A DNA stretch of 64,000 bases, taken from the sequence record OK254197.1; one strand, given 5' to 3'. Position 1 is the first letter of the stretch, and each line of letters begins with the position of its first letter. A program made the position numbers and the translations under genes. Source of the stretch: Escherichia phage PNJ1902. Below the pieces are notes generated by a model. The model made no database searches. It saw only the letters and a program-made list of their open reading frames with translations, and was not told where the DNA came from. Shown here one piece after another: positions 5,533 to 60,021 of the stretch.

Positions 5533-7407
5533 TTATTTAGCTCGAATATCCTGATGTTTCACCCTGCCCATCACCTCGTGCTGTTTGCCGGGGTTAAATG
5601 GACGAGCACCCGGATTTCCAAGATACCCACAAACTCGACGAGTTACTTCAAGAGTTTCGGGGTCATGATTACCACAGATAGGGCACTTAAATCCATCTTC
5701 GGATGCTATTGTTTCACCTAAGAATCCACATTTACCACAAGAATCCACTGGGGTATTAATACCGAAATAATGAACCTTACTAGCAGCATAATTAATAACC
5801 CATTCCAGTGCATCTGGGAATCGTTTCATATCCGGTAGTTCTACATAGGAAATGCACCCACCAGAAGCAATAGGAGTAAAGTTAGATTCATAATCAAATT
5901 TCACATTGGGAGCAACTTTACGTTCTACATCAAGGTGGTGCGAGTTAGTGTAGTATCCTTTGGACAGAATATCTTCATGCTCTGGGAAATATTCACGGTC
6001 TAGACGACAAAAACGGTCACATAGGGATTCTGATGGTGTAGCATACAGGCTATAACCTAATTTAGTTTCTTCCTTCTTCTGATCGACTCTATCCCGCATG
6101 TATTGCAATACACGCTGAACAAACTTGATGCAGGTCTCGGACATTGTGTCTACCTCTTTGCCAAACATGAACTGTAGCATTTCATGGCAACCAATATACC
6201 CTAGAGATACAGAAGCACGGTTATAGAAATGATCGAATACATATTCATCAGGCCCCAAGCGTAACCCAAAGGCTCCTGACATATAGAGGATAGGTGCAGC
6301 TTTAGCTTGAATGTATTTTAAGCGATCAACTCTCCATTCCAACGCTTTTAATGCTGTATCCACACGTAGCTCAAGCAAATCAAAGAATAGATCAATATTT
6401 CCTTCAGCTTCGATAGCAATTCTAGGCAAGTTTACAGAAACAACACCTAAGTTATTACGACCGGCAGTTTCACCATCTTCTGTAGCAGCTAGGAATGAAC
6501 GGCAGCCCATAGAAACTTTGTAGTCTCCAGTAACCTCTACAACCTTGTCATAGCTGATATAATCTGGATACATACGTTCAGCAGTACATTTCATAGCTAA
6601 CTTCTTGATGTCATAATTAACATCTCCTGGTTTCATATTTACTCCATCACGAAGTACAAATACCAGTTTCGGGAAGATAGCTGTACGTTTATTGATACCT
6701 AAACCATCCATGCGTACTTTCAGTATTGCTTTCTGTACTAGACGTGCTTCCCAAGAAGTTCCTAGACCAAAACCAAAGGTAATAAATGGACTCTGACCAT
6801 TAGAGTTGAACATGGTATTGATTTCATATTCTAAACCCTGACAAGCGTCATAGACTTCTTTTTCAGTCATCTCCGTAGCCATTACGGATGCTTTGGCTTC
6901 ATCCTTAGTCCAACGTTTTGCAAACGCATGATTTTTATCATAGGATTTACGTACATAAGGGGCTAATACTTCATCAAGGCGATCTACAGAAGTACCACCA
7001 TACTGATGGGAGCTAACCTGAGTGATAATCTGAGCAGTAATAGCCGCCGCAGTAGTGATAGAGTTTGGAGTGCTAATTTCAGCATTACCAACCTTCATAC
7101 CATTCTTCAACATATCTTCCAGAGCTACCAGACAACAGTTAGTCATACCTAATGCAGCATAATCAGCATCATGGAAATGAATATCCCCAATCATATGAGC
7201 ATTTCGAATCTGAATTGGCATTTCTTCTAGAATCAGATACTTACTCAATTCACCTGCAAGCATATCCCTTTGTGTAGGGAAACGTTCTGAGGGTTTATTA
7301 GCATTATTAAACAGCAGCTCTTCATCTGCTGACCCTTCGATAATCTCTTTGCAGTTTCTAATTAACGCCTGCATTTCTTTATACTTTAATTCTTCATTGC
7401 GATTCAT
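5533..7407 (-). CDS. nrdD: Anaerobic ribonucleoside-triphosphate reductase (class III RNR)
   Basis: 624 aa; C-terminal glycyl-radical motif RVCGYLG and Zn-ribbon CGKCGF...CPICGN; ATP-cone-like N-terminus. Confidence 0.85.
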   Translation of the reverse strand: MNRNEELKYKEMQALIRNCKEIIEGSADEELLFNNANKPSERFPTQRDMLAGELSKYLILEEMPIQIRNAHMIGDIHFHDADYAALGMTNCCLVALEDMLKNGMKVGNAEISTPNSITTAAAITAQIITQVSSHQYGGTSVDRLDEVLAPYVRKSYDKNHAFAKRWTKDEAKASVMATEMTEKEVYDACQGLEYEINTMFNSNGQSPFITFGFGLGTSWEARLVQKAILKVRMDGLGINKRTAIFPKLVFVLRDGVNMKPGDVNYDIKKLAMKCTAERMYPDYISYDKVVEVTGDYKVSMGCRSFLAATEDGETAGRNNLGVVSVNLPRIAIEAEGNIDLFFDLLELRVDTALKALEWRVDRLKYIQAKAAPILYMSGAFGLRLGPDEYVFDHFYNRASVSLGYIGCHEMLQFMFGKEVDTMSETCIKFVQRVLQYMRDRVDQKKEETKLGYSLYATPSESLCDRFCRLDREYFPEHEDILSKGYYTNSHHLDVERKVAPNVKFDYESNFTPIASGGCISYVELPDMKRFPDALEWVINYAASKVHYFGINTPVDSCGKCGFLGETIASEDGFKCPICGNHDPETLEVTRRVCGYLGNPGARPFNPGKQHEVMGRVKHQDIRAK

Positions 7408-8877: not shown

Positions 8878-11208
8878 ATGAGCCATCGCATTGAAAAAGT
8901 AATTAAACGTGACGGTACTGTAGAAGACTTTGCTCCCGAAAAAATCAATGGTTGGGCAGAGTATGGTTGCAAAACAGTTGATGTAAGTTGGTCAGCCATT
9001 ACTATGGCTGCTCAAAAAACTCTGCCTAAAGGGGTTGTAGATTCCGACACTCTGATGGATGCATTAATTAAAGCTGCTGAAAGTCTTATTAAAGATAATC
9101 CAGCATATGATGTGCCAGCAAAGGAATTACGTCTTGCGCAAATGCGTAAACGCCTTTATGATTCTTTCGAACCACCTTCTCTACGCTTCTTCCATGATCA
9201 CATGGTTAGCGTAGGTGCATGGGAAGACATGAGTGCATGGATTACCGATGAGCAATTTGAAGCTCTGAATCAAGTTATCGACCATGATCGTGATCGTCTT
9301 TTTACTAGTGGTGGACTGAAACAGTTCTTTGATAAGTATTCCCGTCGTAACATAGCCACTGGTGAAATTTATGAAACTCCGCAGTTTGCCTACATGGGTA
9401 TGGCAATGGCGATGTTATCTCAACCTAACTGGACAATTCTAGATGCAATCGACCTCTACAACGCAATGTCACTCCACAAAATCAACGTTCCTACGCCGCC
9501 ACTGGTTGGTCTGCGCTCTAGTGACCGTGGATTTGCTAGTTGCTGTCTCGTGGATTCCACTGACACGTTGGATTCAATCGACACCGCCGAGCACATCGTC
9601 TTCAAAATGGTCGCAGCCAGAGCGGGAATCGGGTATCATCTTGAAAGCCGATCAATTGCTGATCCGGTGCGAAATGGGGCATTCCCGCATTCCGGAAAAC
9701 TGCCATATTATCGACACATTGACCGCTCAGTAAAGGCCAATACTCAGCAAACTCGTGGTGGTTCTGCCACAGTGTCTTATCCGTACTTCGACCCTGAAAT
9801 CATTCAATTGATGCAGGTTAAGCAACAACGTGCTACAGATGAGAATAAAATCGATAAGATGGATTATTCTCTGAGCTTTAACAATCTTTTGTTAAAACGT
9901 TATCTTAAAAACGAAGATATTACGCTAATGTCATACTTCTATGCTCCAGAAGTTCATGAAGCGTTTTATAGTGATGACGAGGCTAAATTTGAAGAAATCT
10001 ACGTGGCAGCGGAGAAACGTGTGGCATCTCTTACAAAGATCGACCACGAAGGAAAAACAGTTCCTGCAGCTCCTAAAGTCTCTGCAAAAGAAATCCTAGA
10101 TACTTGGCTACGTATCCGAATGGAAACAGGACGTATGTATGCTCACCACATTGGGGAATCTAATCGTCACGGTAACTTCCTTGATCCGATCCGTATGACA
10201 AACCTTTGTGTTGAAATTACTCAGCCTACACGCCCGTTCCATCACATTACAGAGCTGTACAAGACAAAAGAGCAGCTTGATCAAATGAAGCCGGAGGATA
10301 TTGGTGAAGTATCTCTGTGTAACTTAGGTGGTGTTGTACTTGGACGCATGGAATCTCTGGCTGAGTGGGAAAAAACTTGCTACATCCTTCTGAAATTCGT
10401 TGATACAATTATTGAAATTCAGGATTATCCGTTCCCAACTATGGAATATACGGCTAAGAAACGTCGTAATGTTGGTATTGGCCTGATGAACGCAGCAGGT
10501 GCAATGGCAGCAGAAGGTCTGGCTTACGAAGGTATTGAAGCTCGTAACTGGATTCACCGTGAGGCTGAAAAACTGTCTTACTTCCTGCATAAAGCCTCTG
10601 TACGCCTAGCTAAAGAACAGGGTGCATGTGAGTGGTTTGATCGTACTAAACCATCTAAAGGAATCCTGGTAATCGACACGTACAAGAAAACTGTTGATGA
10701 ACTGGTATCCGTAGGTCTAGAAATGGATTGGGAGTCTCTGCGTGCAGATATTCTGAAATATGGTATGCGTAACTCTGTTCTGACTGCTCAGATGCCAGGA
10801 GAAAGTTCTTCTGTTCTGTTAGGTGTTACTAACTCTATCGAACCACCTCGTAAGATTGTATCTATCAAGGGTAGTGCAGTAAATAAAGTAATTGCAATTG
10901 CTCCAGGTGCAACCGATTGGGAAACGTTAATGAGCTATAAACTGGCTTATGATGTAGATCGTATCGAGTGGATCAAGTGGGTAGCAACTATGCAGAAATT
11001 CTTCAGTCAGTCTATCAGTACGAATATGTACTATGACTACACCAAGTTTGAGAATGAAATCATTCCTGGCCCAGTAGTAGTTCGTGATTTCATGACTGCT
11101 GTTAAGTATGGATGGAAAACTTGGTATTATGCTAACTTCAATACCGCAAATGGTGGAGGTGCTGGAGAAGAAGCAGCCGGTTGTGCATCCGGTGGTTGTA
11201 CTATTTAA
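8878..11208 (+). CDS. nrdA: Ribonucleoside-diphosphate reductase large subunit (class Ia)
   Basis: ATP-cone N-terminus (IKRDGTVEDF), NLCVEI active-site region, C-terminal Cys pair; start taken at ATG 8878 after AAAGGAAAG. Confidence 0.85.
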   Translation: MSHRIEKVIKRDGTVEDFAPEKINGWAEYGCKTVDVSWSAITMAAQKTLPKGVVDSDTLMDALIKAAESLIKDNPAYDVPAKELRLAQMRKRLYDSFEPPSLRFFHDHMVSVGAWEDMSAWITDEQFEALNQVIDHDRDRLFTSGGLKQFFDKYSRRNIATGEIYETPQFAYMGMAMAMLSQPNWTILDAIDLYNAMSLHKINVPTPPLVGLRSSDRGFASCCLVDSTDTLDSIDTAEHIVFKMVAARAGIGYHLESRSIADPVRNGAFPHSGKLPYYRHIDRSVKANTQQTRGGSATVSYPYFDPEIIQLMQVKQQRATDENKIDKMDYSLSFNNLLLKRYLKNEDITLMSYFYAPEVHEAFYSDDEAKFEEIYVAAEKRVASLTKIDHEGKTVPAAPKVSAKEILDTWLRIRMETGRMYAHHIGESNRHGNFLDPIRMTNLCVEITQPTRPFHHITELYKTKEQLDQMKPEDIGEVSLCNLGGVVLGRMESLAEWEKTCYILLKFVDTIIEIQDYPFPTMEYTAKKRRNVGIGLMNAAGAMAAEGLAYEGIEARNWIHREAEKLSYFLHKASVRLAKEQGACEWFDRTKPSKGILVIDTYKKTVDELVSVGLEMDWESLRADILKYGMRNSVLTAQMPGESSSVLLGVTNSIEPPRKIVSIKGSAVNKVIAIAPGATDWETLMSYKLAYDVDRIEWIKWVATMQKFFSQSISTNMYYDYTKFENEIIPGPVVVRDFMTAVKYGWKTWYYANFNTANGGGAGEEAAGCASGGCTI

Positions 11209-49993: not shown

Positions 49994-50344
49994 AATCTCA
50001 TAGATTAAAAACATCAACTTGTTTTTACCTCTAGGCCGTAGATTTACATCATTCCTCGTAGGAAAACACTTGATGACGGTTCTGCTCGCAGGTTCTCGTC
50101 AATTGTTCTTCCACACCGAGACTTAGGAGGATGTATCAAATCGCACGCGCCTAGAGGGGCTAACTCTCATGAAATGGGGGTATATTTACTTTTAAATAAC
50201 TAAAAATATTTAAAGGCAATATCTGTGTTCAAGATGATACACCGGTTGCCTCTCATCTGCTAGGATGGCACAACACTTTCTCCTAGACTCCTAAGTTTCT
50301 AGGAATAGTTGAACACTACCTCTAGCGTTTACACTAAACTTTAA

Positions 50345-51082
50345 ATCGGATTTGCACATGTTCTAGGGCAGTTTTTCACCTACTATAAATATCCTAGGCC
50401 GGTTTTCCTATACAGGGCGGTTATGGGGAGGGCGGTTATTTCTAGACAACATTTTTTGAAAACACATTTCTGGATTTTACTGTCGGATTTGCACATTGTG
50501 TTTCTAGAAATTTATGGTCGGATTTGCACAATTGCCTAAGTTTTTAGGAACATATAATCTCCTGAAAATGGCAGCATTATTTCGGGCCGAAGGCCCATGT
50601 TTGCCTGAGTTTTTGGAGCCACAGAAATTTTCACTTGTCAAACTATTTTGCCCCATTTTGCTAATAAAATTTTACTTTATCTCCTCTAATCTCAAATTAA
50701 CCTAAATCTTCTCAACTCTTCCCCAAAATCCCCGCAAATCGGGTGCCCCGCACCAAACATGCGCCCCTCCAGTTTCTCCTCTTATTTTCTCTCGCTCTCT
50801 CATCTTCTCCCCAAACCCACACAATCACACACCCTCCAATCGAAGTCACAAAAATCTTGTCGGATTCGCACATCTTAATCCTAGAAAAACCATGTCGGAT
50901 TTGCACATACCCCACAGGATTCGAACGCAGTTCGTGATTGCTGGAGTTTTTGGGAAAATTCATTGTCGGATTTGCACACTATAAAAATTTTTCGGGTCGG
51001 ATTTGCACACTACCAAAAATTGTCGGATTCGCACATACACGCCCGCACGTAACACCCGTGGAGCAATGTCGGATTTGCACAA
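50345..51082. repeat. Array of at least 9 dispersed direct repeats of a 14-bp motif GTCGGATT(T/C)GCACA (iteron-like)
   Basis: Copies near 50345, 50482, 50518, 50859, 50894, 50965, 50998, 51022, 51068. Confidence 0.8.
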
Positions 51083-51084
51083 AA

Positions 51085-51106
51085 GCGCAGGGCAATTGCC
51101 CTGCGC
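51085..51106. repeat. Perfect 22-bp palindrome gcgcagggcaattgccctgcgc
   Basis: Seen in sequence. Confidence 0.8.
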
Positions 51107-51109
51107 TAA

Positions 51110-51310
51110 AATACGAATGATAATAAGAATCATTCTCATTTAAAAAGCGGAATGAGAATGATAATAATTCGCATTTAGAAAGTGAAATGATAATCATTAT
51201 CATTTAAAAAGCGGAATGATTCTCATTTAAGAAGTGAAACGATTCTCATTTAAGAAGTGAAACGATTCTCATTTAGAAAGTGAAATGCAAATGATAATGA
51301 TTCTCATTTA
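51110..51310. repeat. Tandem and palindromic repeats resembling Fur boxes
   Basis: aatgataatcattatcatt palindrome; three tandem copies of about 22-bp unit gattctcatttaagaagtgaaac. Confidence 0.7.
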
Positions 51311-51339
51311 AGAATGGAAGTGAGAAACACTATTATTTA

Positions 51340-51520
51340 AGTTATCCACAGACTTATCAACAGCACGATTTGACTTGACAAAATTCTAGCCGTTTTGAAG
51401 CGTTATCAACAGACTTATCCACAGCTTATCCTACTGTATAAATATACAGTATTCCTACGCAGCGAATAATTCTAATATACCGCTAAAACGCTCTCAAACG
51501 CATTCTAACGCGTTTAATTT
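51340..51520. repeat. Left arm of imperfect inverted repeat with DnaA-box 9-mers and LexA-box-like palindrome
   Basis: TTATCCACA at 51342 and 51415, TTATCAACA at 51355 and 51403; CTGTATAAATATACAG at 51434-51449. Confidence 0.7.
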
Positions 51521-51641
51521 TGTTGGGGATACTAAAACAAGGGCAAAATTGGAGGAGGCTTGAAAATTAGTTAGCCCGCTAACGATCACACAAGGCGACA
51601 CGTAACACCCTAACCATTAGCAGGCTAACCATCGCGGGCGC

Positions 51642-51662
51642 GGTCAAATGAGAATGATTCTC
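51642..51662. promoter_or_regulatory. Fur-box-like 21-bp palindrome aaatgagaatgattctcattt
   Basis: Seen in sequence. Confidence 0.4.
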
Positions 51663-51707
51663 ATTTGAGAATTGGGGGCACTTCCAGATAGTTGCGCCCC
51701 GTGATTA

Positions 51708-51902
51708 TTAGTCGGGTAGTCGATGCGTGATTTTTTCCTCCTCCCCATAGGAATCTACCAAATACTGATAATAACCATCGTGATCATAAATCACTTTATC
51801 ATAATCGCCACGCTCGACCGCTTGTCGGTTTTCCGGCGTATCGGGCACGTAAAAAATATCAACCATTGTACTAGTTTTGGTTACAACAATTTTATTGCTC
51901 AT
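51708..51902 (-). CDS. Hypothetical small protein
   Basis: ORF track. Confidence 0.4.
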   Translation of the reverse strand: MSNKIVVTKTSTMVDIFYVPDTPENRQAVERGDYDKVIYDHDGYYQYLVDSYGEEEKITHRLPD

Positions 51903-52175
51903 AATAACGCCCTAGTAAATATATTTTTGCCAATAGTGGCGAACGTTATCGCCACCAGCGGAATCATTAGCGGCCTTACTATTACCAACGAAAGTATATA
52001 ATCTCATTAGTATTATTTTCCTTGCATTAATTTATATATAACGAACATCCCGCAAAACTGCCCTAATATAGTGCAGACAACAAGGGATAACACAATATTG
52101 CCGATCATGTTATAAGTAACCATACCAGTAATAAGGGATAGCGCATACCCTAGCAAAGCAATATAAACAGCCATA

Positions 52176-52526
52176 TTATTTACCTATTTTTCGAAACGCT
52201 GTTTCAATACTATCAGCCGTGGATTGAATATATGCGCCTTTCATTATCAGGCGCTCAGTGCATACTTTACGGAAAATATTAATAAAATCATCTTCATTTT
52301 CTGCGATTAATGCCTCACCCATAACCTGAACGTCGCAAGATGCAAAGGTCAAAAATTGAAACGCTAGTTCACGGGCAACGACCGCATTGATTTTATAATG
52401 CGCCTTTCCCTCGTAAATATTAATAACGCCCTTATATGCTGGCGAAAGCTGGTTTAAATAGTTTGCTAACAATGCCGGGCGGCAGTTAGCAACAAAACGA
52501 TTGCCCTCGTAAATGATCATTTGCAT
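52176..52526 (-). CDS. Hypothetical protein
   Basis: ORF track. Confidence 0.45.
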   Translation of the reverse strand: MQMIIYEGNRFVANCRPALLANYLNQLSPAYKGVINIYEGKAHYKINAVVARELAFQFLTFASCDVQVMGEALIAENEDDFINIFRKVCTERLIMKGAYIQSTADSIETAFRKIGK

Positions 52527-52644
52527 AACCTCCCGATCAGATAGCCTGATAAAAGCATAAAGACCCCCAACGAAATGGGATCATTCTTAAATAAGGTGGC
52601 GATAAAACCGCCAGCCATTGCAAGGAGAATAACAATAACGCTTT

Positions 52645-52857
52645 TCATAGTACCCCACGAAACGCAGCGTAAAAGGTGGCAAAATATTTAACCGTTTCAG
52701 TGATCACGTTGCCGCGCTTATCGAATTTCTTTTCAGTAACACGAAAAGCGTTTTTGTTACGTGCTACATATTCGATTTTACAGTCTGGGCGCTCGAACGT
52801 GTTAGCATCCACCAGCTTAAAACCTTTTGAACGTGCAAGAGAAACGTTGCGGATCAT
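52645..52857 (-). CDS. Hypothetical small protein
   Basis: ORF track. Confidence 0.4.
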   Translation of the reverse strand: MIRNVSLARSKGFKLVDANTFERPDCKIEYVARNKNAFRVTEKKFDKRGNVITETVKYFATFYAAFRGVL

Positions 52858-53058
52858 TTTTATTCTCCTTTACCAGTCATGCAGCCCAGCAGATAAGAAA
52901 ATGCAGCGATACCCGCGCCAATAATAACCGCGTGAACGTCGAAAGCTATTGCAAACAAAGATAAAATAGCGCCCAAGATACCCGCCAGAATAGCTCGAAA
53001 AATAACCATATGTAATACTCCCTAGTTAGTGGGGGCGAAAGTAACGCCCCGTTATTAA

Positions 53059-53322
53059 TTACATTAAAATAATTTTTGCCGCTTGTTTTTTGGTACAGTG
53101 TTCCGCCTTCAGGGTATCCAGCAAAAAGCCCGCCGTTTGCTGATCGATTTGATCATTATCATAAAGCGCCTGTATGGTAGTATAAGTTTTAGCGATGCCG
53201 TACTCTTGCACCATTTCCTGAATAATCCAGCGATTTGATACCCAGCCTTTACCAGTGAAAAGATGACTAGCAGAAGAATATGCAACCATTATAAGCCTCC
53301 AAAATTTTGGGAAAATTTTCAA
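53059..53322 (-). CDS. Hypothetical protein
   Basis: ORF track. Confidence 0.4.
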   Translation of the reverse strand: MKIFPKFWRLIMVAYSSASHLFTGKGWVSNRWIIQEMVQEYGIAKTYTTIQALYDNDQIDQQTAGFLLDTLKAEHCTKKQAAKIILM

Positions 53323-53519
53323 CCGTCCTCAAACGGTGTAAAGGCATTATAACAAAAAAGGCCACCATAAAAGGCGACCTTTACAAAACTTTACATTAGA
53401 TTATTTATTACTCGTTTTCGGTGTTATTGGTAAAAGTAGAAATATCGATACCTTTTACCATTTCCAGCATTGCCGCCACCTGGCCGCCGTGTTGGGTCTT
53501 TACTTTAATATTACCCCGC

Positions 53520-53705
53520 AGCGTTTAGCTCGTTAGAAAGCGTTTTAGGCCGCTTAAAATTGATTGCAGTCGTTAACACTACCTTTTTACCCTGTATATT
53601 TATACAGTAGGATAACCTGTGGATAAGTCTGTGTAAAAGTCCCTATATCGCCGCCTATCGTGTCAAGTCAAAAAGTGCTGTGGATAACGTTGTGGATAAC
53701 TTAAA
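53520..53705. repeat. Right arm of inverted repeat with DnaA boxes and LexA-box-like palindrome
   Basis: CTGTATATTTATACAG at 53592-53607; TGTGGATAA copies near 53617, 53681, 53693. Confidence 0.7.
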
Positions 53706-53890
53706 TGATAGTGGTTCTCACTAATTAATTTATGTAGTTATTATATCGTAAAATATAGTTAGTTGCCTAATAGGTTTTTAGAGTGATTATGAGTCAGCTA
53801 ATTAAACCTGAAAAACTCATTAGCTAGTCTGCTAATCATTTTGATATAATATAATAGAGATTAAAGTAATAACATAAGGAAACTATAACA

Positions 53891-54412
53891 ATGGGTAAAT
53901 ATAAAGAAATTAATTATAATGATATAAAAGATCACGTATATTATGATGAATCGTCGCCATCATTTCTACGATGGAAAGTAACGCGGGATAATATTTCAGC
54001 AGGTGATATTGCCGGTTGTATTAATTCCAGTGGTTATTATATCGTAACTATTAATAACGTTAGTTACCGAGTACATCGTATCATATGGGTATTATTTCAT
54101 AAAGAAATAGATAGCAATCTAACAATCGATCATATTGATCGTAACCGCGCTAATAATAACATTAAAAACTTACGCCTTGTTACTCATTCGCAGAATTGTA
54201 GTAACAAGGGTGATAGTTTGCGTGCTAATGGTTTACCTAGAAATATTTCATATCATTCTAATAATCGTGTTGATAGTAACGGGCGTAAATATATGACGGC
54301 TATGTTTCGAGTGCCTAATAGTAACAAGCGTGTTAGTAAGTCTGGTTATGATTTACAAGAGTTATTATTATGGCTTGAAACTAAAAAAGCTGAATTTGGA
54401 ATTGTCAATTAA
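53891..54412 (+). CDS. HNH homing endonuclease
   Basis: IDHIDRNRANNNIKNLRLVTHSQN (HNH_3-type motif); AT-rich relative to neighbours. Confidence 0.65.
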   Translation: MGKYKEINYNDIKDHVYYDESSPSFLRWKVTRDNISAGDIAGCINSSGYYIVTINNVSYRVHRIIWVLFHKEIDSNLTIDHIDRNRANNNIKNLRLVTHSQNCSNKGDSLRANGLPRNISYHSNNRVDSNGRKYMTAMFRVPNSNKRVSKSGYDLQELLLWLETKKAEFGIVN

Positions 54413-54925
54413 TTAATTTAATAAATTAAGTCATTTGATCTTGATTTTTAAAAGTCAAGACCTTTTCTAACTTTATTTCAATTTTGCTTTTGTTAAATAT
54501 TTGTTAAGTCCAATTTAAGGCATCTAGAACGCATTCTAAGCGCCTTAAAAACTAACCTAAGCAAGTGCATTGCTTATACGCCTTTATCGCCATCAGGAGG
54601 ATTCTAGATTTTGTCAATACCCCCAAAGCAAATATAAATGAAAAAATTACTTGCCTATCTGTCATGTTTTGTGGTATTCGCGCGCCCGTTTCTTTTAATT
54701 TTAATGCGCCGCGCCCAGGTCGCCGCACGGTGTCCGGTGGCGTTTGTCTTTACATTTCTTTACAAAAAGAAGGTTGCGCCTTTTTCGTTGTTTGTTATTA
54801 TTTATCTCGTAGGGCGGCAATGACGAACTACACGGCGGGAAGTTTACCGCCGCGCTCTTTAAAAATTGGGTATATCTTAAAGCCTATCGGCGGTAAACTT
54901 ATTTACATTATAAGGAATCGACGAT

Positions 54926-55084
54926 ATGACAACAATATTTAATGATCATCCAGCTACTCACGACACGATCGAAAAGATCGAGCAATGGGTAAAAAAGGCA
55001 AATGAATACTATGCTAATCATTCAGAAGCGGTAATAATCTGCAATGATGGCAAAGGTTTATACGCTTTGGAGGATCTCAAATAA
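54926..55084 (+). CDS. Hypothetical 52-aa protein
   Basis: ATG after AGGAATCGACGATATG; below ORF-track cutoff. Confidence 0.3.
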   Translation: MTTIFNDHPATHDTIEKIEQWVKKANEYYANHSEAVIICNDGKGLYALEDLK

Positions 55085-55284
55085 TGCAAACTTTATTGAT
55101 CACTGGTAAACCTAGCAAGGCACTGGATACCAGAACAAAAAATTTGTTGACAGTAGCGCAAAGATCGGTAAAATATCGATTTAAGCAGTACAAGAAAGGT
55201 CGCCAGCAGGGTCTGGAAATGATCTGGCGAAATATTATGATTGACCTGAAAGAAAATCATAAAAAATCTCAAAAAACTGTTTGA
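55084..55284 (+). CDS. Hypothetical small basic protein
   Basis: ORF track. Confidence 0.4.
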   Translation: MQTLLITGKPSKALDTRTKNLLTVAQRSVKYRFKQYKKGRQQGLEMIWRNIMIDLKENHKKSQKTV

Positions 55285-55514
55285 CAACCTAGCCGATAGG
55301 TTTTAAGATGTACCCAGTTCGATGAGAGCGATAACTTGATAAAATTTGACGGTCGGTGCTTACCATAATGCATCCCGCCCCCTAACTGGGATATAGCGGC
55401 CTGCGTGGAGTTCTTTAAATTGATTTAACTGGCGAGCGGATTGTTACTTATTACCTGCTACTATTTTCTAGCAGGTAATGCGAAACAATCCCCTAAATAA
55501 CTGGAGTTTATACT

Positions 55515-55766
55515 ATGCAAAACGTTACTAATGCGCCGAAAATTGGTCAATCCGTTTTTATCCCTTTCGTTACCAAAACGGATGAATTAACCGGAAAAGC
55601 CGAACGTATTAAAGGTGCGGCGCTTATGCCGTTTGATACAATCGATGCGGTATACGCTGAAAATGAACGCAGTAACAACGGAAAAACCGTTTATAACGTT
55701 CGCGTTAAATCCGGCGACGTTGTAAAGGTTGTTCAACGCAACGAAAAATGGGAAGCCGTTTTATAA
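55515..55766 (+). CDS. Hypothetical protein (pre-early-like module)
   Basis: ORF track; CTGGAG RBS; terminator hairpin downstream. Confidence 0.5.
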   Translation: MQNVTNAPKIGQSVFIPFVTKTDELTGKAERIKGAALMPFDTIDAVYAENERSNNGKTVYNVRVKSGDVVKVVQRNEKWEAVL

Positions 55767-55774
55767 ATTAGTGT

Positions 55775-55812
55775 TAACTTTATATGCCCCAGTAGTTCGG
55801 GGCATATAACGA
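55775..55812 (+). terminator. Rho-independent terminator
   Basis: atatgccccagtagttcggggcatat. Confidence 0.55.
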
Positions 55813-55863
55813 TTAACATTAGTTAATCTTATCCCTTAAATTAAATTAATTGGAGTTTTTACC

Positions 55864-56271
55864 ATGACTAACGCAAAAGCCGCAAAATTTTCTTGGAACG
55901 AAGAAAACACCCAAAAAGCTGTTACCATGTATCAGCAGTTAATCAATGAAAACGGTTTAGATTTCGCAAATAGCGACGGCCTGAAAGAGATTGCGAAAGC
56001 AGTTGGCGCGGCTTCTCCCGTGTCAGTTCGCTCAAAATTGACCAGCGCGAAAGCATATCAAAAAAGCGATAAGCCGCGCAAAGTTGGCGGCGGTAGTTCA
56101 ATCCGTAAAGCTCACTATGTACGAGTAATTGCAAAACACGCTATCGATTCCGGCATTATCAAGGACGCCGATGATCTGGCAAGCCTTGAAAGCGCAAAAT
56201 TAGAAACGTTGGACGCCGTGGCGCAACTGTTAGGCGTTGCCGATGAGGTAAAGCAGGCCGCAGGTGAATAA
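55864..56271 (+). CDS. Hypothetical protein (pre-early-like module)
   Basis: ORF track; TGGAG RBS. Confidence 0.5.
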   Translation: MTNAKAAKFSWNEENTQKAVTMYQQLINENGLDFANSDGLKEIAKAVGAASPVSVRSKLTSAKAYQKSDKPRKVGGGSSIRKAHYVRVIAKHAIDSGIIKDADDLASLESAKLETLDAVAQLLGVADEVKQAAGE

Positions 56272-56276
56272 ATTTA

Positions 56277-56310
56277 AATAGCGGGGGATTATTCCCCCGC
56301 TGTAATTCCC
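56277..56310 (+). terminator. Rho-independent terminator
   Basis: agcgggggattattcccccgct. Confidence 0.55.
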
Positions 56311-56330
56311 CTTTAATTGGAGTTATTAAA

Positions 56331-56528
56331 ATGATCTTTTACCCCGCTGAATCGCTCATTCTAGGCTTATTTATTATGGCGGCCTCATTATTGTTCGCTT
56401 ATTTTCAAAATGATTTAGATTCGTATTATTTTAAACGCAAATCTAAGTTAGCAAAGCGGTTAGGTCTGATTTGTTTTATTGCTGCCATTGTTTGTGGTGT
56501 TAGTTCTAGCCTGATGCCTATTAGTTGA
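56331..56528 (+). CDS. Small membrane protein
   Basis: ORF track; two hydrophobic segments. Confidence 0.45.
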   Translation: MIFYPAESLILGLFIMAASLLFAYFQNDLDSYYFKRKSKLAKRLGLICFIAAIVCGVSSSLMPIS

Positions 56529-56624
56529 ATGTTGCAAATTATAACGCCTATTATTGGAGGCGTTATATTTGGCAATATTGCCAATAATAAACGTTTTTTA
56601 ATCCCTTTAATGGAGTTTATTACT

Positions 56625-58289
56625 ATGATTTTTTCCGCAGAAAAACAAACCGTTATCCTGAAACTAGCCGCTGACTTTAATTTCTATGGTAAACGTCTGC
56701 GCGCTACTAAATTGGAGGTCTGCGACGATATTTCTAAAGCGGTTTATGATACTGCAAAGCATTCAACCGCTATCTGCGACTGGTTAGAAGCAAATAAACC
56801 AGCGAAACCGAAAACAGCGAAAGCGGTGAAAGCCATTAAAAACGACGAGCGCCCTGAAGCGGCTGGAATTATTTCCAGCACGGTGGAACAGTGGGAAGTA
56901 AAACAAGGCAAACGCTTTATTATTACGTCGATTCAGAATAATACTTTCCCGCATAAAAACTTTTTAGCCTCACTTGAACAATATGCTAAATTTATCGGCG
57001 CTGATTTGCTTGTTTCTAAGTATATTTATAATAAAAACGGTTTTCAGAATGGAGAAGGCGCAGACGGTGTAAAATATGCTTCCGCGTTTGATAAATATAT
57101 TTGCAGCAAAAACGTGTTTTTAAATAATCGCCGTTTTGCTTTCATGGCTGAAATTAATGTTTTGCCCACCGCGGATTATCCGCTATCTGGATTTGCAGAA
57201 ACTGCAACCGCGCTTAATCTGGAAGGTCTGGCAATTGGTCACGCTAAAATCACCGCCGAAAGCGTCCCAGCTCTCAAAGGTGAAGTAGTACGCCGCATGT
57301 ATTCAACCGGAACGGCAACGCTTAAAAACTACATTCAGCAAAAAGCAGGGCAAAAAGCGGAAGCATTACATAATTACGGCGCGCTTATTGTCGAGTTTGA
57401 CGAAGACGGTGAATTTTTTGTTCGCCAGCTTGAAACGATGGACGAAAGCGGCATGTTTTATGATCTTAATGTTTGCGCTACTCCCGCCGGATGTTTTGAA
57501 ACGTCGGGGCATGTTTTAGGCTTGCAGTATGGCGACGTGCACGCTGAAAAATTAGATGATGAGTGCGCCGCAGCGTCATGGGCTGGCGACAATAGTTTGC
57601 TCGATATTCTCAAACCAAAATATCAGTTTATCCATGACGTGCATGATTTTACATCACGCAATCATCACAACCGCGCGTCTGGTGTATTTCTAGCGAAACA
57701 GTATGCAGCCGGACGTGATAAAGTTCTGGATGATCTCATCGACACCGGGCGAGTGCTGGAATCAATGGAGCGCGATTTTAGTCAAACGATCATTGTCGAA
57801 TCGAATCACGATTTGGCGTTATCTCGTTGGCTTGATGATCGCAATGCTAACATTAAAGACGATCCAGCCAACGCCGAACTGTACCACCGCCTTAATGCCG
57901 CTATCTACGCAGCTATTGCAAAGCAGGATGATACTTTCAACGTGTTAGATTATGCGTTGCGTACGGTTGCAGGTTGCGAGTTTAACGCGATTTTCCTAAC
58001 GACTGATCAATCTTTCAAGATTGCAGGCATTGAATGCGGCGTACACGGTCACAACGGCATTAACGGCAGCCGTGGCAATCCTAAGCAGTTTAAGAAATTG
58101 GGCAAGTTAAACACGGGGCACACCCACACCGCCAGCATATACGGCGGCGTATATACGGCGGGCGTTGCTGGTTCCCTAGATATGGGCTATAACGTTGGCG
58201 CGTCAAGCTGGACGCAAACGCATTTAATTACCTATGCAAACGGTCAGCGCACTTTGATTGACTTTAAAAACGGTAAATTCTTTGCGTAA
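56625..58289 (+). CDS. A1: A1-like pre-early protein with calcineurin-like metallophosphatase/nuclease domain
   Basis: GDVHAE, HD, SNHD, HGHNG, GHTHT motifs; about 554 aa from ATG 56625 after GGAG; followed by A2-like and dmp-like genes. Confidence 0.55.
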   Translation: MIFSAEKQTVILKLAADFNFYGKRLRATKLEVCDDISKAVYDTAKHSTAICDWLEANKPAKPKTAKAVKAIKNDERPEAAGIISSTVEQWEVKQGKRFIITSIQNNTFPHKNFLASLEQYAKFIGADLLVSKYIYNKNGFQNGEGADGVKYASAFDKYICSKNVFLNNRRFAFMAEINVLPTADYPLSGFAETATALNLEGLAIGHAKITAESVPALKGEVVRRMYSTGTATLKNYIQQKAGQKAEALHNYGALIVEFDEDGEFFVRQLETMDESGMFYDLNVCATPAGCFETSGHVLGLQYGDVHAEKLDDECAAASWAGDNSLLDILKPKYQFIHDVHDFTSRNHHNRASGVFLAKQYAAGRDKVLDDLIDTGRVLESMERDFSQTIIVESNHDLALSRWLDDRNANIKDDPANAELYHRLNAAIYAAIAKQDDTFNVLDYALRTVAGCEFNAIFLTTDQSFKIAGIECGVHGHNGINGSRGNPKQFKKLGKLNTGHTHTASIYGGVYTAGVAGSLDMGYNVGASSWTQTHLITYANGQRTLIDFKNGKFFA

Positions 58290-58291
58290 TT

Positions 58292-58335
58292 AAATTATTC
58301 CCTAGCGGCTTGAAATATAGCCGCTATTATAGGAG
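58292..58335 (+). terminator. Terminator-like hairpin
   Basis: tagcggcttgaaatatagccgcta. Confidence 0.45.
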
Positions 58336-58342
58336 TCAAAAA

Positions 58343-58600
58343 ATGAAAGTTATTCTACCCAAAACACTAGACGAAAAAGCGTTTATTTCCCCCGATGAAA
58401 TGGAATCCGATAAAGTTTACAGCTTCGGGCCTATCCTAGCCGCCAAAACTAATACTGATGGAATTATTACAGTCGATTATCGTGATAATGATATTGTTCC
58501 TTTTGACGATGATGACGCTTTTTATGAGTGGTTAAGCGATAATAATTTACCCGTAAGTGGTGAATTAACGCCGTATCAGATGCAAATCATTATCAAATAA
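58343..58600 (+). CDS. Hypothetical acidic protein
   Basis: ATG 58343 after AGGAGT; track ORF 58310 start lies in the hairpin. Confidence 0.45.
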   Translation: MKVILPKTLDEKAFISPDEMESDKVYSFGPILAAKTNTDGIITVDYRDNDIVPFDDDDAFYEWLSDNNLPVSGELTPYQMQIIIK

Positions 58601-58638
58601 TTTAAATCCCCTATTAAACTAATTGGAGTTTTATAACT

Positions 58639-59031
58639 ATGAAAAAGCAAAATATTCCATTCGATCGCGCTCAATCTTCCATTGTTCTGGTTTATTCTAA
58701 TGGTGAACGTTACCACGTCGAGGCGGGGCACGTTATTGATGACCTATTAGATTTCAATGACGCATTGCAGGTTACAACATTTGCATATATGCAAGGCAAA
58801 CTAACAAGCCATATTAAAGCAAAAGGTGTTTATGTTGACACGATGAAACAAGAAACGATTATCATCGACGCAGTAAAATCCGGTCTAGCCTTTGCAGTTG
58901 TCGCGCCTTGTCCGGCTTGTCTTGATGATCAACTAATGAGCGCGAAGGTATTTACATGCGCGGGCATTCGTTCCCATGTATCCGGCGAAGATATTAGTTA
59001 TATCGCTGATGCGTTGGCGTATGGTCTTTGA
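58639..59031 (+). CDS. A2: A2-like pre-early protein, putative
   Basis: 130 aa, position between A1-like and dmp-like genes; assignment by synteny and size only. Confidence 0.35.
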   Translation: MKKQNIPFDRAQSSIVLVYSNGERYHVEAGHVIDDLLDFNDALQVTTFAYMQGKLTSHIKAKGVYVDTMKQETIIIDAVKSGLAFAVVAPCPACLDDQLMSAKVFTCAGIRSHVSGEDISYIADALAYGL

Positions 59032-59039
59032 TAGTTGAT

Positions 59040-59070
59040 TTATTATTGCCCGCTTATAAATAGCGGGCAA
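59040..59070 (+). terminator. Terminator-like hairpin
   Basis: ttgcccgctataaatagcgggcaa. Confidence 0.5.
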
Positions 59071-59111
59071 TGCTGGATAAACTACATCCCTTTAATGGAG
59101 AACGTAACAAA

Positions 59112-59846
59112 ATGAATCAAGTTAAAACGAATATTACCCGTAATTTCCCGCATATTTCCCGCGTCATGATTTGGGATCTTGATGGCACTATCGTTAATTC
59201 ATTCCATCGTGTCGCGCCTTGCTTTGATAGCGATGGGAATTTAGATTTAAATAAGTATAAAAATGAAGCGTGTAAGCATGATTTAATAATGCAAGATACT
59301 TTATTGCCTTTGGTGGAATATATGCGCCAATGCATGAATGACGCAAATACTTTAAACATTATTTGCACCGCTCGACTGATGAGCAAATCAGATTATTACT
59401 TCCTACGCAAACAAGGTTTGCGCGGTCGTGGTGATAGTAATATCCGTGTATTTTCCCGCGATACACTGCATAAATATTTTGAAGCTGATAAGGTTAGCGA
59501 GATATACCACAGCAAGGACGCAGTTTATAAAAGTTATTATTTTGAGCTATTCAAGCAACTATATCCGAACGCTGATTTTACAATGATTGATGATCATAAA
59601 GGTGTATTATCAGCGGCGGCATCATACGGATTTAAAACGCTGGACGCGCAAGCCGTTAATGATATTCTATCAATCGGCGTGGCATTGATAGGCGGAACCT
59701 TTATTGATGAATCTCTCGATGATGATAATGATTATCAGTTCCTAGCTGATCGCTTAAAGTTATGTTGGGAAAGTATGACAGAAGAAGAACGCGCAGAATA
59801 TAGTTGCAGCCCGCAACAATATATCGAGAAATTAAAAGTTGCGTAA
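59112..59846 (+). CDS. dmp: 5'-deoxyribonucleotidase (HAD-type), Dmp-like
   Basis: IWDLDGTIVNS (HAD motif I DxDGT); 244 aa from ATG 59112 after GGAGAA. Confidence 0.55.
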   Translation: MNQVKTNITRNFPHISRVMIWDLDGTIVNSFHRVAPCFDSDGNLDLNKYKNEACKHDLIMQDTLLPLVEYMRQCMNDANTLNIICTARLMSKSDYYFLRKQGLRGRGDSNIRVFSRDTLHKYFEADKVSEIYHSKDAVYKSYYFELFKQLYPNADFTMIDDHKGVLSAAASYGFKTLDAQAVNDILSIGVALIGGTFIDESLDDDNDYQFLADRLKLCWESMTEEERAEYSCSPQQYIEKLKVA

Positions 59847-59857
59847 TAATTAAAGTT

Positions 59858-59900
59858 GAGATAGTTTCACCTTGCAATTAAAATGGTTGCAGGGTGAAAC
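59858..59900 (+). terminator. Rho-independent terminator hairpin
   Basis: gtttcaccttgcaattaaaatggttgcagggtgaaac. Confidence 0.55.
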
Positions 59901-60021
59901 AGTTAGCATGGTAATAGTAACGGGGGTGGCGGTTAGCAGACTAAGTATTCTCCCCCTAGCCACTGCACCCACCCACGCGTACGTAATCCAAAGAATTTGA
60001 CAAAAGTCATTTTAGTGCTAA

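What the first reader, a model, noticed from the sequence alone, without database searches (positions are those of the whole stretch)
51340..53705. About 180-bp inverted repeats with DnaA boxes and a LexA-box-like palindrome flank a 2.1-kb segment of small minus-strand genes
Left arm (51340-51520) and right arm (53520-53705) are imperfect reverse complements. Each carries several TTATCCACA/TTATCAACA 9-mers and a CTGT-N8-ACAG palindrome (tactgtataaatatacagta; ctgtatatttatacag) matching the LexA SOS-box consensus. The enclosed genes (51708-53322, minus strand) include small membrane proteins. This arrangement could be a host-factor-responsive switch, an origin-like element or a cassette bounded by recombinogenic repeats.
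Basis: partly seen in the sequence, partly recalled or inferred. Interest (0 to 1): 0.8.

Follow-up and report, generated by a model that had tools for sequence, protein, structure and literature searches.

The report
T5-type injection-stop inverted repeats
These are the already described inverted repeats in the terminal repeat of T5-like phages (the injection-stop region); each arm carries four host DnaA boxes and one near-perfect LexA operator, and the LexA site, apparently unremarked in the papers I could search, is the most conserved block across the phage family.

Summary
The window carries a 131-nt inverted repeat (51319-51449 / 53592-53722) with a weaker inner extension. It has eight DnaA-type 9-mers in four pairs and one CTGT-N8-ACAG palindrome at the inner end of each arm.

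It is not new. The window is a T5-like phage (Demerecviridae), reversed relative to the T5 map. The arms are the annotated IRC-spacer-IRD and IRD'-spacer-IRC' repeats of the T5 terminal repeat, part of the candidate injection stop signal. The eight DnaA boxes and the variable pre-early gene block between the arms are published (Davison 2020).

What I add:
- The palindrome (T5 palD) is one base from the E. coli tisB LexA operator.
- It is the best-conserved block of the arm in Escherichia, Salmonella, Klebsiella, Pectobacterium-type, Proteus and Vibrio T5-like phages, and sits 7-11 nt from a DnaA box pair.
- No searchable paper links it to LexA.

I found no inversion in 36 close relatives, no concerted evolution of the arms, no recombinase and no oriC-type unwinding element.

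Most likely the arms are cis-acting docking sites for host DnaA and LexA on first-step-transfer DNA. That function is inferred, not shown.

The parts
51319..51449 (.). Left arm. Homologue of T5 IRD'-spacer-IRC' (T5 9332-9462, Repeat Region 3, candidate injection stop signal).
   Evidence: A public record (Salmonella phage S114) annotates the homologous stretch as 'similar to DNA injection stop signal'.
53592..53722 (.). Right arm. Homologue of T5 IRC-spacer-IRD (T5 6022-6152, Repeat Region 2).
51342..51423 (+). Four DnaA-type boxes of the left arm: TTATCCACA at 51342, TTATCAACA at 51354, TTATCAACA at 51403, TTATCCACA at 51415. They form two pairs 3 bp apart, 61 bp from pair to pair.
   Evidence: Same layout as Davison's description.
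53618..53699 (-). Four DnaA-type boxes of the right arm: TTATCCACA at 53618, TTTTACACA at 53630, TTATCCACA at 53679 and 53691.
51432..51451 (.). LexA-operator-like 20-mer TACTGTATAAATATACAGTA (T5 palD) at the inner end of the left arm.
   Evidence: 26.2 bits on a matrix built from remembered E. coli operators, whose own scores run 13-25. One base from the tisB operator TACTGTATAAATAAACAGTA. Its CTACTG, ATA and TACAG columns are invariant across 10 arms from all clades.
53590..53609 (.). LexA-operator-like 20-mer CCCTGTATATTTATACAGTA at the inner end of the right arm.
   Evidence: 23.3 bits.
51486..51537 (.). Weak inner extension of the left arm. It pairs with about 53504-53556 (the T5 IR B' homologue lies at 53535-53556) and contains the recurrent GCGTTTTAG-type motif.
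51708..53322 (-). Enclosed block of eight small pre-early ORFs (counterparts of T5 ORF011-017). It includes a T5.015-like protein (52645-52857) and three small hydrophobic proteins.
53573..53600 (+). Promoter-like site TTAACA-16-TATATT. Its -10 hexamer lies inside the right-arm LexA box and it points outward through the DnaA boxes.
   Evidence: 10 of 12 matches. Conserved in 11 distinct relatives but absent from T5.
51110..51315 (.). AT-rich repeat and palindrome cluster just outside the left arm (T5 DRC, palE-palI). It contains Fur-box-like sequences, including a perfect TGATAATCATTATCA at 51188.
51078..51104 (-). palJ hairpin followed by a T-run. It is identical over 21 of 21 bases to the T5 sequence annotated as the major 7.9% nick.
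50346..51088 (.). Copies of the T5 DRD repeat (TGTCGGATTTGCACA). The homologue of the T5 terminal-repeat end lies at about 50616.
53891..54412 (+). HNH endonuclease gene inserted just outside the right arm, in the same place as the HNH insertion that separates Repeat Regions 1 and 2 in T5.

Best explanation
The feature is the IRC-spacer-IRD / IRD'-spacer-IRC' inverted-repeat pair of a T5-like (Demerecviridae) terminal repeat. In the window that repeat runs from about 50616 to 59968, reversed relative to the T5 map. The left arm belongs to the non-coding region that holds the candidate injection stop signal. The right arm lies between the divergent pre-early transcription units.

Each arm is a compact array of host-protein binding sites: two pairs of DnaA boxes about 50 bp apart, and a near-consensus LexA operator at the end that faces the enclosed genes.

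Most likely mechanism (inferred, not shown). The arms act in cis on the first-step-transfer DNA. As that DNA enters the cell, DnaA and LexA, both present in uninfected cells, occupy the arms and build a nucleoprotein complex at the boundary of the transferred DNA. This complex helps to arrest or anchor the DNA until the phage A1 and A2 proteins allow transfer of the rest. This extends Davison's DnaA model by adding LexA.

The arms are not a recombination switch, a transposon end or a replication origin. The variable gene block between them consists of ordinary pre-early accessory genes.
For: Identity (shown):
- The 3.6-kb region matches 533 phage records, mostly Salmonella, Escherichia and Klebsiella phages, with the Spc35 left terminal repeat under the match.
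- T5's annotated IR C, IR D, IR D', IR C', palD, DRB, DRC, palJ, the 7.9% nick and DRD all map in order onto the window.
- The arm alone is found in 545 records at 1220 places, i.e. 2 or 4 per genome.
- One record labels the homologous stretch as an injection stop signal.
- Davison describes the same 131-bp repeats, the eight DnaA boxes in pairs 3 bp apart, and the variable genes between them.

Host-factor sites (shown as sequence conservation):
- All strong DnaA boxes of the 64-kb window lie in the arms.
- Of 55 A2-anchored loci, 51 have at least one LexA-type site of 20 bits or more, and 43 have at least two.
- The order DnaA box, about 50 bp, DnaA pair, 7-11 nt, LexA box holds in T5, Klebsiella, My1-type, Proteus and Vibrio phages whose A2 proteins are only 40-64% identical.
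- In an alignment of 10 arms from all clades, the invariant columns are CTACTG, ATA and TACAG plus the DnaA boxes, while the spacer is free to vary.
- Variation follows what LexA tolerates: T and G of CTG never vary, CTGT changes to CTGG, and the centre flips between AA and TT.
- The left-arm site is one base from the tisB operator used in LexA binding studies.

Position (inference): in T5 the estimated shear point of first-step DNA (9618) lies about 150 bp beyond the arm. The arm would therefore sit close to the cytoplasmic exit when transfer halts.
Against: - No binding or functional experiment exists. A 2023 paper states that experimental studies of these sites are lacking, and a 2026 paper calls the mechanism poorly understood.
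- It is not obvious how proteins bound to DNA that is already inside the cell would stop further entry.
- The right arm lies 2-4 kb before the stop point, so its role in this model is unclear.
- One group of Vibrio phages (L051-L053) lacks a strong LexA site, so it is not universal.
- My LexA scoring matrix was built from operators recalled from memory.
- The palindrome could instead bind a conserved phage protein.
Confidence: 0.55

Rival explanations
1. Transcriptional control. The LexA boxes and DnaA boxes are operators or roadblocks for pre-early promoters. LexA would repress an outward-reading promoter in the right arm and, in other clades, a promoter upstream of the A2-A1-dmp operon. Bound proteins on the left arm would stop RNA polymerase from reading out of the gene block into DNA that has not yet been transferred.
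For: - A promoter-like site TTAACA-16-TATATT (10 of 12) has its -10 hexamer inside the right-arm LexA box, and it is conserved in 11 distinct relatives.
- In Proteus, Vibrio and My1-type phages a further LexA box sits 2-13 nt upstream of a TTGAC hexamer ahead of the A2 operon.
- In every clade the left-arm LexA box lies at the downstream end of a transcription unit.
Against: - T5 itself lacks the -35 hexamer at that position.
- Most box contexts score only 8 of 12, which the -10-like box gives by itself.
- The T5 annotation places promoter P4 about 180 bp from the box.
- The promoter scan found 31 sites against 18.7 +/- 3.9 expected, so single hits are weak evidence.
- The best-conserved site, in the left arm, has no promoter.
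Confidence: 0.2
2. The palindrome and other conserved blocks are sites for a phage protein (for example the dimeric DNA-binding protein A2, or the A1-A2 complex), or they act as DNA structures (cruciform). The resemblance to a LexA operator would be coincidental.
For: - palD is a 20-bp near-perfect palindrome. Its spacer is far more uniform (ATAWWTAT) than LexA requires, and some copies keep TGTATAWWTATACA while breaking CTG or CAG.
- Other conserved blocks have no known host factor: GTGAGAAACACTAT, TGAGAATNATTCTCA, GCGTTTTAG.
- A2 is a dimeric DNA-binding protein needed for the second transfer step.
Against: - The motif stays the same while A2 diverges to 40% identity.
- It always sits beside sites that match the host DnaA consensus.
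- Its invariant bases are exactly the CTG/CAG of the LexA consensus.
- The same pairing of a DnaA box and a LexA box occurs in viral contigs where I found no A1 or A2 in the DNA held.
Confidence: 0.15
3. Recombination function. The arms are recombinogenic repeats that invert the enclosed segment, or conserved flanks that allow co-infecting phages to swap the accessory gene block.
For: - The content between the arms varies from 1590 to 4060 bp among 29 distinct relatives, while the arms are conserved.
- In My1-type phages a homologue of the 64-aa ORF lies next to the other arm on the other strand, as an old inversion would produce.
Against: - The orientation is the same in 36 of 36 close relatives.
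- The arms do not evolve in concert: 64.8% identity within a genome versus 64.3% between genomes.
- No recombinase or invertase gene is present.
- Conservation is concentrated in protein-binding motifs rather than spread evenly along the arm.
Confidence: 0.1
4. Origin-like or titration element. The DnaA box clusters start replication, or the replicated phage DNA soaks up DnaA and LexA and so changes host replication and the SOS response.
For: - There are eight DnaA boxes per terminal repeat, so 16 DnaA boxes and 4 strong LexA sites per virion genome with both repeats.
- An AT-rich stretch (70-78% A+T) adjoins the left arm.
- In one unrelated contig the same pairing of sites lies beside a replication gene module.
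Against: - No oriC-type 13-mers or GATC clusters lie at the arms.
- Davison cites origin mapping to the centre of the genome, and replication genes are not expressed while only first-step DNA is inside.
- T5 degrades host DNA early, which makes tuning of host regulons of doubtful value (inference).
Confidence: 0.08

Closest known systems
T5 inverted repeats C/D and D'/C' with palindrome D (annotated in AY587007; 'IRCspacerIRD' and 'IRD'spacerIRC'' in Davison 2020, bioRxiv 10.1101/866236)
   Same: - Same place in the terminal repeat and the same 131-bp length.
- Same eight DnaA-type boxes in pairs 3 bp apart.
- Same neighbours: DRC palindromes, palJ with the 7.9% nick, DRD repeats, and an HNH insertion.
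- Same variable pre-early gene block between the arms.
- Direct sequence homology.
   Different: Nothing structural. This is an orthologue in a different T5-like phage (about 94% identical to Salmonella phages S124, SP01 and Spc35). The published description does not mention LexA, SOS or Fur.
E. coli SOS boxes (LexA operators, CTG-N10-CAG), for example the tisB operator
   Same: - A 16-mer CTGT-N8-ACAG with an AT-rich spacer and TA flanks.
- The left-arm site differs from the tisB operator at one base.
- The pattern of variation among phages matches what LexA tolerates.
   Different: - It does not sit on a demonstrated promoter.
- It lies in a virulent phage rather than in a host gene, colicin plasmid or temperate phage.
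- It is always paired with DnaA boxes.
- Binding is untested.
Chromosomal DnaA box clusters (oriC, datA)
   Same: Several consensus or near-consensus DnaA 9-mers lie in the same orientation and closely spaced. Davison makes the comparison with oriC.
   Different: - No unwinding element and no GATC sites.
- Boxes are 3 bp apart.
- There is no evidence of initiation here.
Invertible DNA segments bounded by inverted repeats (Hin, Gin, Cin type)
   Same: Inverted repeats flank a segment of 2-4 kb that carries genes.
   Different: - No invertase gene.
- Only one orientation was seen in close relatives.
- The arms are 131 bp of protein-binding motifs rather than short crossover sites.

Membership tests
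T5-type IRC/IRD - IRD'/IRC' repeats of the injection-stop region | Lies in the terminal repeat of a Demerecviridae genome, between the A2-A1-dmp operon and the end of the repeat | tested here: met
   A2, A1 and dmp lie at 55864-59846. The T5 left end maps to about 59968 and the T5 repeat end to about 50616. The Spc35 left terminal repeat lies under the match.
T5-type IRC/IRD - IRD'/IRC' repeats of the injection-stop region | Two 131-bp arms, each made of two inverted-repeat blocks separated by a spacer of about 51-52 bp | tested here: met
   IR C' at 51319-51357 and IR D' at 51409-51449; IR D at 53592-53632 and IR C at 53684-53722.
T5-type IRC/IRD - IRD'/IRC' repeats of the injection-stop region | Eight DnaA or DnaA-variant boxes in pairs 3 bp apart | tested here: met
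   compared with Davison's description.
T5-type IRC/IRD - IRD'/IRC' repeats of the injection-stop region | Sequence homology to the T5 repeats and to the neighbouring DRC, palJ/nick and DRD elements | tested here: met
   (for example IR C' 73 of 78, DRC3 62 of 62, nick site 42 of 42). (545 records).
T5-type IRC/IRD - IRD'/IRC' repeats of the injection-stop region | Acts in cis to stop DNA transfer at about 8% of the genome | not testable with these tools
LexA operator (SOS box) | Palindromic CTG-N10-CAG / CTGT-N8-ACAG 16-mer close to the consensus | tested here: met
   One base from the tisB operator. Consensus as quoted.
LexA operator (SOS box) | Overlaps or adjoins a promoter that it represses | tested here: inconclusive
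   The right-arm box overlaps the -10 of a 10-of-12 promoter-like site, conserved in a subgroup only. T5 and all left arms lack it.
LexA operator (SOS box) | Bound by LexA; the regulated function responds to RecA-dependent LexA cleavage | not testable with these tools
   Needs gel-shift or footprinting assays, ChIP, or infection of lexA mutant hosts.
DnaA-dependent replication origin | DnaA box cluster next to an AT-rich unwinding element with 13-mer repeats and GATC sites | tested here: not met
   The box cluster is present. No 13-mer within 2 mismatches lies next to the arms, and there is no GATC in 50300-51583.
Invertible segment / site-specific recombination switch | Recombinase gene in or beside the segment, and both orientations found in nature | tested here: not met
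   No recombinase among the 8 ORFs; only an HNH endonuclease lies outside. 36 of 36 relatives have the same orientation.
Transposon or insertion-sequence terminal inverted repeats | Transposase gene, and presence or absence as a unit at varying sites | tested here: not met
   No transposase. The arms are at the same orthologous positions in every relative examined.

The most novel reading that the evidence does not exclude
The T5 'palindrome D' sites are true LexA operators. Together with the DnaA boxes (and possibly the Fur-like boxes next to them) they make the injection-stop region an array of docking sites for host repressor proteins. LexA occupancy would help to arrest or anchor the first-step DNA. 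LexA cleavage after A1-dependent host DNA breakdown could then help to time the second transfer step. The same module, a DnaA box pair next to a LexA box, would be more general among virulent phages of Gammaproteobacteria, because it recurs in viral contigs that are not obviously T5-like.
Probability: 0.3. Interest if true: 0.8.

Novelty: already known. Interest (0 to 1): 0.45.

Why it matters
How T5 stops its DNA injection at 8% of the genome and later restarts it is still unresolved; recent papers call the mechanism poorly understood and note that the sites have not been tested. The repeats themselves add nothing new.

The useful result is that their most conserved block is a near-perfect LexA operator held at a fixed distance from a DnaA box pair, in phages of Escherichia, Salmonella, Klebsiella, Proteus and Vibrio. 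That names a second candidate host factor, and the idea can be tested with existing tools: LexA binding assays, lexA mutant hosts, and phage mutants with the palindrome scrambled.

Tried and rejected
- **Inversion or cassette idea.** I ran tblastn with the eight enclosed ORFs against 55 loci. All were in the same orientation in close relatives. I also tested for concerted evolution of the arms and found none.
- **Origin idea.** I scanned for 13-mer unwinding repeats and GATC sites and found none at the arms.
- **RNA element.** The Rfam scan gave only a sub-threshold PrrF hit. It is explained by a Fur-box-like sequence and a terminator hairpin, not by an RNA family.
- **Fur boxes.** The window and T5 have good matches. 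Across the family, however, the consensus of that palindrome is TGAGAATNATTC(T/G)CA rather than the Fur consensus, so I do not claim Fur binding.
- **Promoter overlap with the LexA boxes.** Found only for the right arm of a subgroup.
- **A wasted scan.** One viral-contig scan used the wrong spacer length (N6 instead of N4) and found nothing. I repeated it correctly.
- **Literature.** Davison's 2015 review could not be opened, so I could not check whether it mentions LexA. Searches combining T5 terms with LexA, SOS or DnaA box found no paper that makes the link.
Full report

- The repeat finder reports arms at 51319-51449 and 53592-53722. They are 131 nt long, 80% complementary without gaps, and 2142 nt apart.
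- A gapped local alignment of one arm against the reverse complement of the other scores 137. Shuffled sequence gives 18.0 +/- 2.3.
- After about 36 unrelated bases, a weaker similarity continues inward in the same register (51486-51537 versus about 53504-53556). It scores 19 against 8.7 +/- 1.5, and none of 500 shuffles reaches it.
The strong core is 131 bp and begins 21 bp further out than stated.
- All five TTATCCACA and both TTATCAACA of the 64-kb window lie in the arms; 1.9 TTATCMACA are expected for the whole window.
- With TTTTACACA at 53630 this makes eight boxes, four per arm. All boxes in an arm share one orientation, and they form pairs 3 bp apart.
- The two AT-rich CTGT-N8-ACAG palindromes lie at 51434 and 53592, at the inner end of each arm.
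- The segment between the arms holds eight minus-strand ORFs. Three of them are small hydrophobic proteins.

**2. What is it?** It is a named, annotated element of T5-like phages.

- The region matches 533 phage records, mostly Salmonella, Escherichia and Klebsiella phages. The best matches are about 94% identical (S124, SP01, Spc35). The match lies on the minus strand of the annotated left terminal repeat of Spc35.
- The T5 record AY587007 annotates inverted repeats C and D (6022-6152), D' and C' (9332-9462) and palindrome D (9330-9349). It also annotates direct repeats B, C and D, palindromes E to J, and the major 7.9% nick.
- Mapping each of these onto the window gives a collinear, reversed picture:
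  - IR C' at 51319-51357 and IR D' at 51409-51449.
  - IR D at 53592-53632 and IR C at 53684-53722.
  - The DRC and palindrome cluster at 51110-51315.
  - palJ and the nick sequence at 51078-51104 (21 of 21 bases identical).
  - DRD repeats from 50346 to 51088.
  - The end of the T5 terminal repeat at about 50616.
- The T5 left end maps to about 59968. A2, A1 and dmp lie at 55864-59846. Both arms therefore lie inside a terminal repeat of about 9.35 kb, which is present once in this window.
- Davison's preprint describes exactly these 131-bp repeats in 25 T5-like phages. It covers the eight DnaA or variant boxes in pairs 3 bp apart, the constant spacer, and the poorly conserved genes between them. 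It proposes that membrane-bound DnaA holds the DNA at the injection stop signal.
- One public record labels the homologous stretch 'similar to DNA injection stop signal'.
- The arm alone is found in 545 phage records at 1220 places. That is two per genome when the terminal repeat is collapsed in the assembly and four when both copies are present.

**3. The enclosed genes.**

- They belong to phage protein families of T5-like pre-early genes. One (52645-52857) falls in the family annotated as an endonuclease that nicks abasic sites made by host Ung.
- An HNH endonuclease gene (53891-54412) sits just outside the right arm. T5 has a comparable insertion between its Repeat Regions 1 and 2.
- Among 29 distinct relatives the distance between the arms ranges from 1590 to 4060 bp.
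- The shared genes always have the same orientation relative to A2, in 36 of 36 loci.
- The one exception is in distant My1-type phages. There a homologue of the 64-aa ORF lies beside the other arm on the other strand. An ancient inversion would produce this, but it is a single gene.

**4. The LexA-type palindrome.** This is the part the accessible literature does not cover.

- Davison's text contains no mention of LexA, SOS or Fur. Papers from 2023 and 2026 describe the region only as repeats, palindromes and DnaA boxes, with no experimental work.
- My searches found no paper linking T5 or T5-like phages to a LexA box.
- The left-arm 20-mer TACTGTATAAATATACAGTA differs at one base from the tisB operator TACTGTATAAATAAACAGTA used for LexA binding studies. 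It fits the CTG-N10-CAG consensus.
- On a scoring matrix that I built from E. coli operators recalled from memory, the two sites score 26.2 and 23.3 bits. The operators themselves score 13 to 25. No other site in the window exceeds 13.8.
- I collected 55 loci anchored on the A2 gene, not on the motif. They cover T5 and its close relatives, Klebsiella Sugarland-type, My1 and DU_PP_V-type, Proteus, and several Vibrio groups. Their A2 proteins are 40-64% identical to the window's.
  - 51 loci have at least one site of 20 bits or more, and 43 have at least two.
  - Of the four without such a site, L036 and L053 lack most of the region upstream of A2. L051 and L052, from one Vibrio phage, hold the region but have only sites of 13-16 bits there.
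- The layout is the same everywhere: a DnaA box, about 50 bp, a DnaA pair, 7-11 nt, then the LexA box at the end facing the genes.
- In an alignment of ten arms from all clades, the invariant columns are CTACTG, ATA and TACAG of the LexA box, together with the DnaA boxes. The spacer is free to vary.
- Among 30 distinct 20-mers, T and G of CTG never vary. The next T is replaced mainly by G, and the two central bases flip between AA and TT. I remember CTGG as a variant seen in natural E. coli operators.
- Additional sites occur at non-homologous places. One lies inside the spacer of DU_PP_V-type and Vibrio arms. Another lies 2-13 nt upstream of a TTGAC hexamer ahead of the A2 operon in Proteus, Vibrio and My1-type phages.
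- A motif that stays fixed while the phage's own DNA-binding protein diverges, and that always sits beside the host DnaA consensus, is better explained by a host protein than by a phage protein.

**5. What it is not.**

- *Not a recombination switch or frequently recombining repeats.* Left arms of different genomes are 89% identical and right arms 78%. The two arms of one genome are 64.8% identical, the same as arms of different genomes (64.3%). The similarity is therefore old and kept up motif by motif, not by gene conversion. There is no recombinase.
- *Not an oriC-like origin.* No 13-mer unwinding repeats adjoin the arms, and there is no GATC at all in 50300-51583. Davison cites origin mapping to the middle of the genome.
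- *Not a curated RNA family.* The only Rfam hit is sub-threshold.

**6. How it most likely works.**

*Shown:* the arms are conserved arrays of sequences that match the DnaA and LexA consensus. They lie at fixed positions in the DNA that enters the cell first.

*Inferred:* DnaA and LexA, both present in uninfected cells, occupy the arms as the DNA arrives.

In T5 the estimated shear point of first-step DNA (9618) lies about 150 bp beyond the outer end of the arm. By my own rough geometry, that is about the length of DNA needed to span the cell envelope. The left arm, with its LexA box entering first, would then sit at the cytoplasmic exit when transfer halts.

I therefore favour a cis-acting nucleoprotein complex that arrests or anchors the DNA. 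This is Davison's DnaA model extended by LexA. I give it moderate confidence, because how proteins on already-entered DNA would block further entry is unexplained, and the role of the right arm is unclear.

The main rival is transcriptional control. In this phage and 11 relatives the right-arm box overlaps the -10 of a reasonable promoter-like site that reads outward. T5 lacks that site, however, and the better-conserved left arm has no promoter. A phage-protein site, a recombination role and a titration or origin role remain possible but are less supported.

**7. Beyond the family.**

- An exact search of viral contigs for TTATCCACA, 5-14 nt, CTGTAT-N4-ATACAG found 58 stretches. I estimate that fewer than about one match would occur by chance.
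- Most are T5-like genomes or distant metagenomic relatives that encode A1, A2 and dmp.
- Several others show no A1 or A2 in the DNA held:
  - One group of about 45-kb contigs carries the motif in a 1.2-kb non-coding region beside a gene module of DNA polymerase, primase and helicase.
  - Another group carries a LexA box flanked on both sides by DnaA pairs, near the terminase and portal genes.
- I followed this only partly.

**8. Verdict.** The feature is real, non-random and already described. The new element is that palindrome D reads as a near-perfect LexA operator, conserved across the family and coupled to a DnaA pair. It gives a testable lead on a long-standing question, but it rests on sequence alone.

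Noticed in passing
window 51110-51315 and 51645-51672: A cluster of Fur-box-like sequences lies just outside the left arm. Six of the eight matches in the window with 4 or fewer mismatches to GATAATGATAATCATTATC fall within 180 bp, and there is a perfect TGATAATCATTATCA at 51188. Across the family the consensus of this palindrome is TGAGAATNATTC(T/G)CA, so binding by Fur is uncertain. I found no mention of it in Davison's text.
   Followed up: partly
window 51078-51214 (minus strand): A sub-threshold Rfam match to PrrF (38 bits against a gathering score of 90). It aligns only to the Fur-box and promoter part of the model and to its terminator. The terminator match is the palJ hairpin plus T-run, which is also the sequence T5 annotates as the 7.9% nick. 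It might mark a short outward transcript, or it might be chance.
   Followed up: partly
L110 10040-11217; L107 6400-6560; also L074, L082-L084, L088, L109, L111-L114: The same pairing of a DnaA box pair with a LexA box occurs in metagenomic viral contigs that show no A1, A2 or dmp in the DNA held. Some of these regions also carry a TGAGAATCATTCTCA or GATAATGATAAT box and a CACGTGCGTGGGCGCACATG-type motif like those of the T5-family repeat regions.
   Followed up: partly
L047 6064-6273 (+), also L046 and L048; compare window 51708-51902 (-): In My1-type phages the homologue of the 64-aa ORF lies next to the opposite arm on the opposite strand, as an ancient inversion between the arms would produce.
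   Followed up: partly
window 51480-51512 and 53520-53556; L047 about 7200; L056 about 9520; L043 about 9500: A motif of the type GCTTAGAATGCGTTTTAGAGCGTTTTAG (two GCGTTTTAG units) recurs next to LexA boxes in every clade. I know of no binding factor for it.
   Followed up: no
window 51319-51335 and 53706-53722: The outer end of each arm carries AGTGAGAAACACTAT. It is more than 90% conserved among 59 arms and is also present in Proteus phages. Its function is unknown.
   Followed up: no
window 50346-51088: Copies of TGTCGGATTTGCACA (T5 direct repeat D) span the end of the terminal repeat. Each contains ATTTGCACA, one mismatch from the strict DnaA consensus TTWTNCACA.
   Followed up: no
window 50300-51583: There is no GATC in 1.28 kb of the non-coding repeat region, where about 5 would be expected from length alone.
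   Followed up: no
window 54640-54780: In the region between the HNH gene and the A2 operon, CGCGCGCCCGTTTCTT and CTTTACATTTCTTTACAAA match sequences at the same relative place in Vibrio and Proteus T5-like phages. The non-coding elements of Repeat Region 1 are thus also deeply conserved.
   Followed up: no
left-arm LexA boxes of L003-L042 (window 51441-42): The two central bases of palindrome D switch between AA and TT repeatedly among close relatives. This equals flipping the whole palindrome and suggests template switching or palindrome inversion.
   Followed up: no
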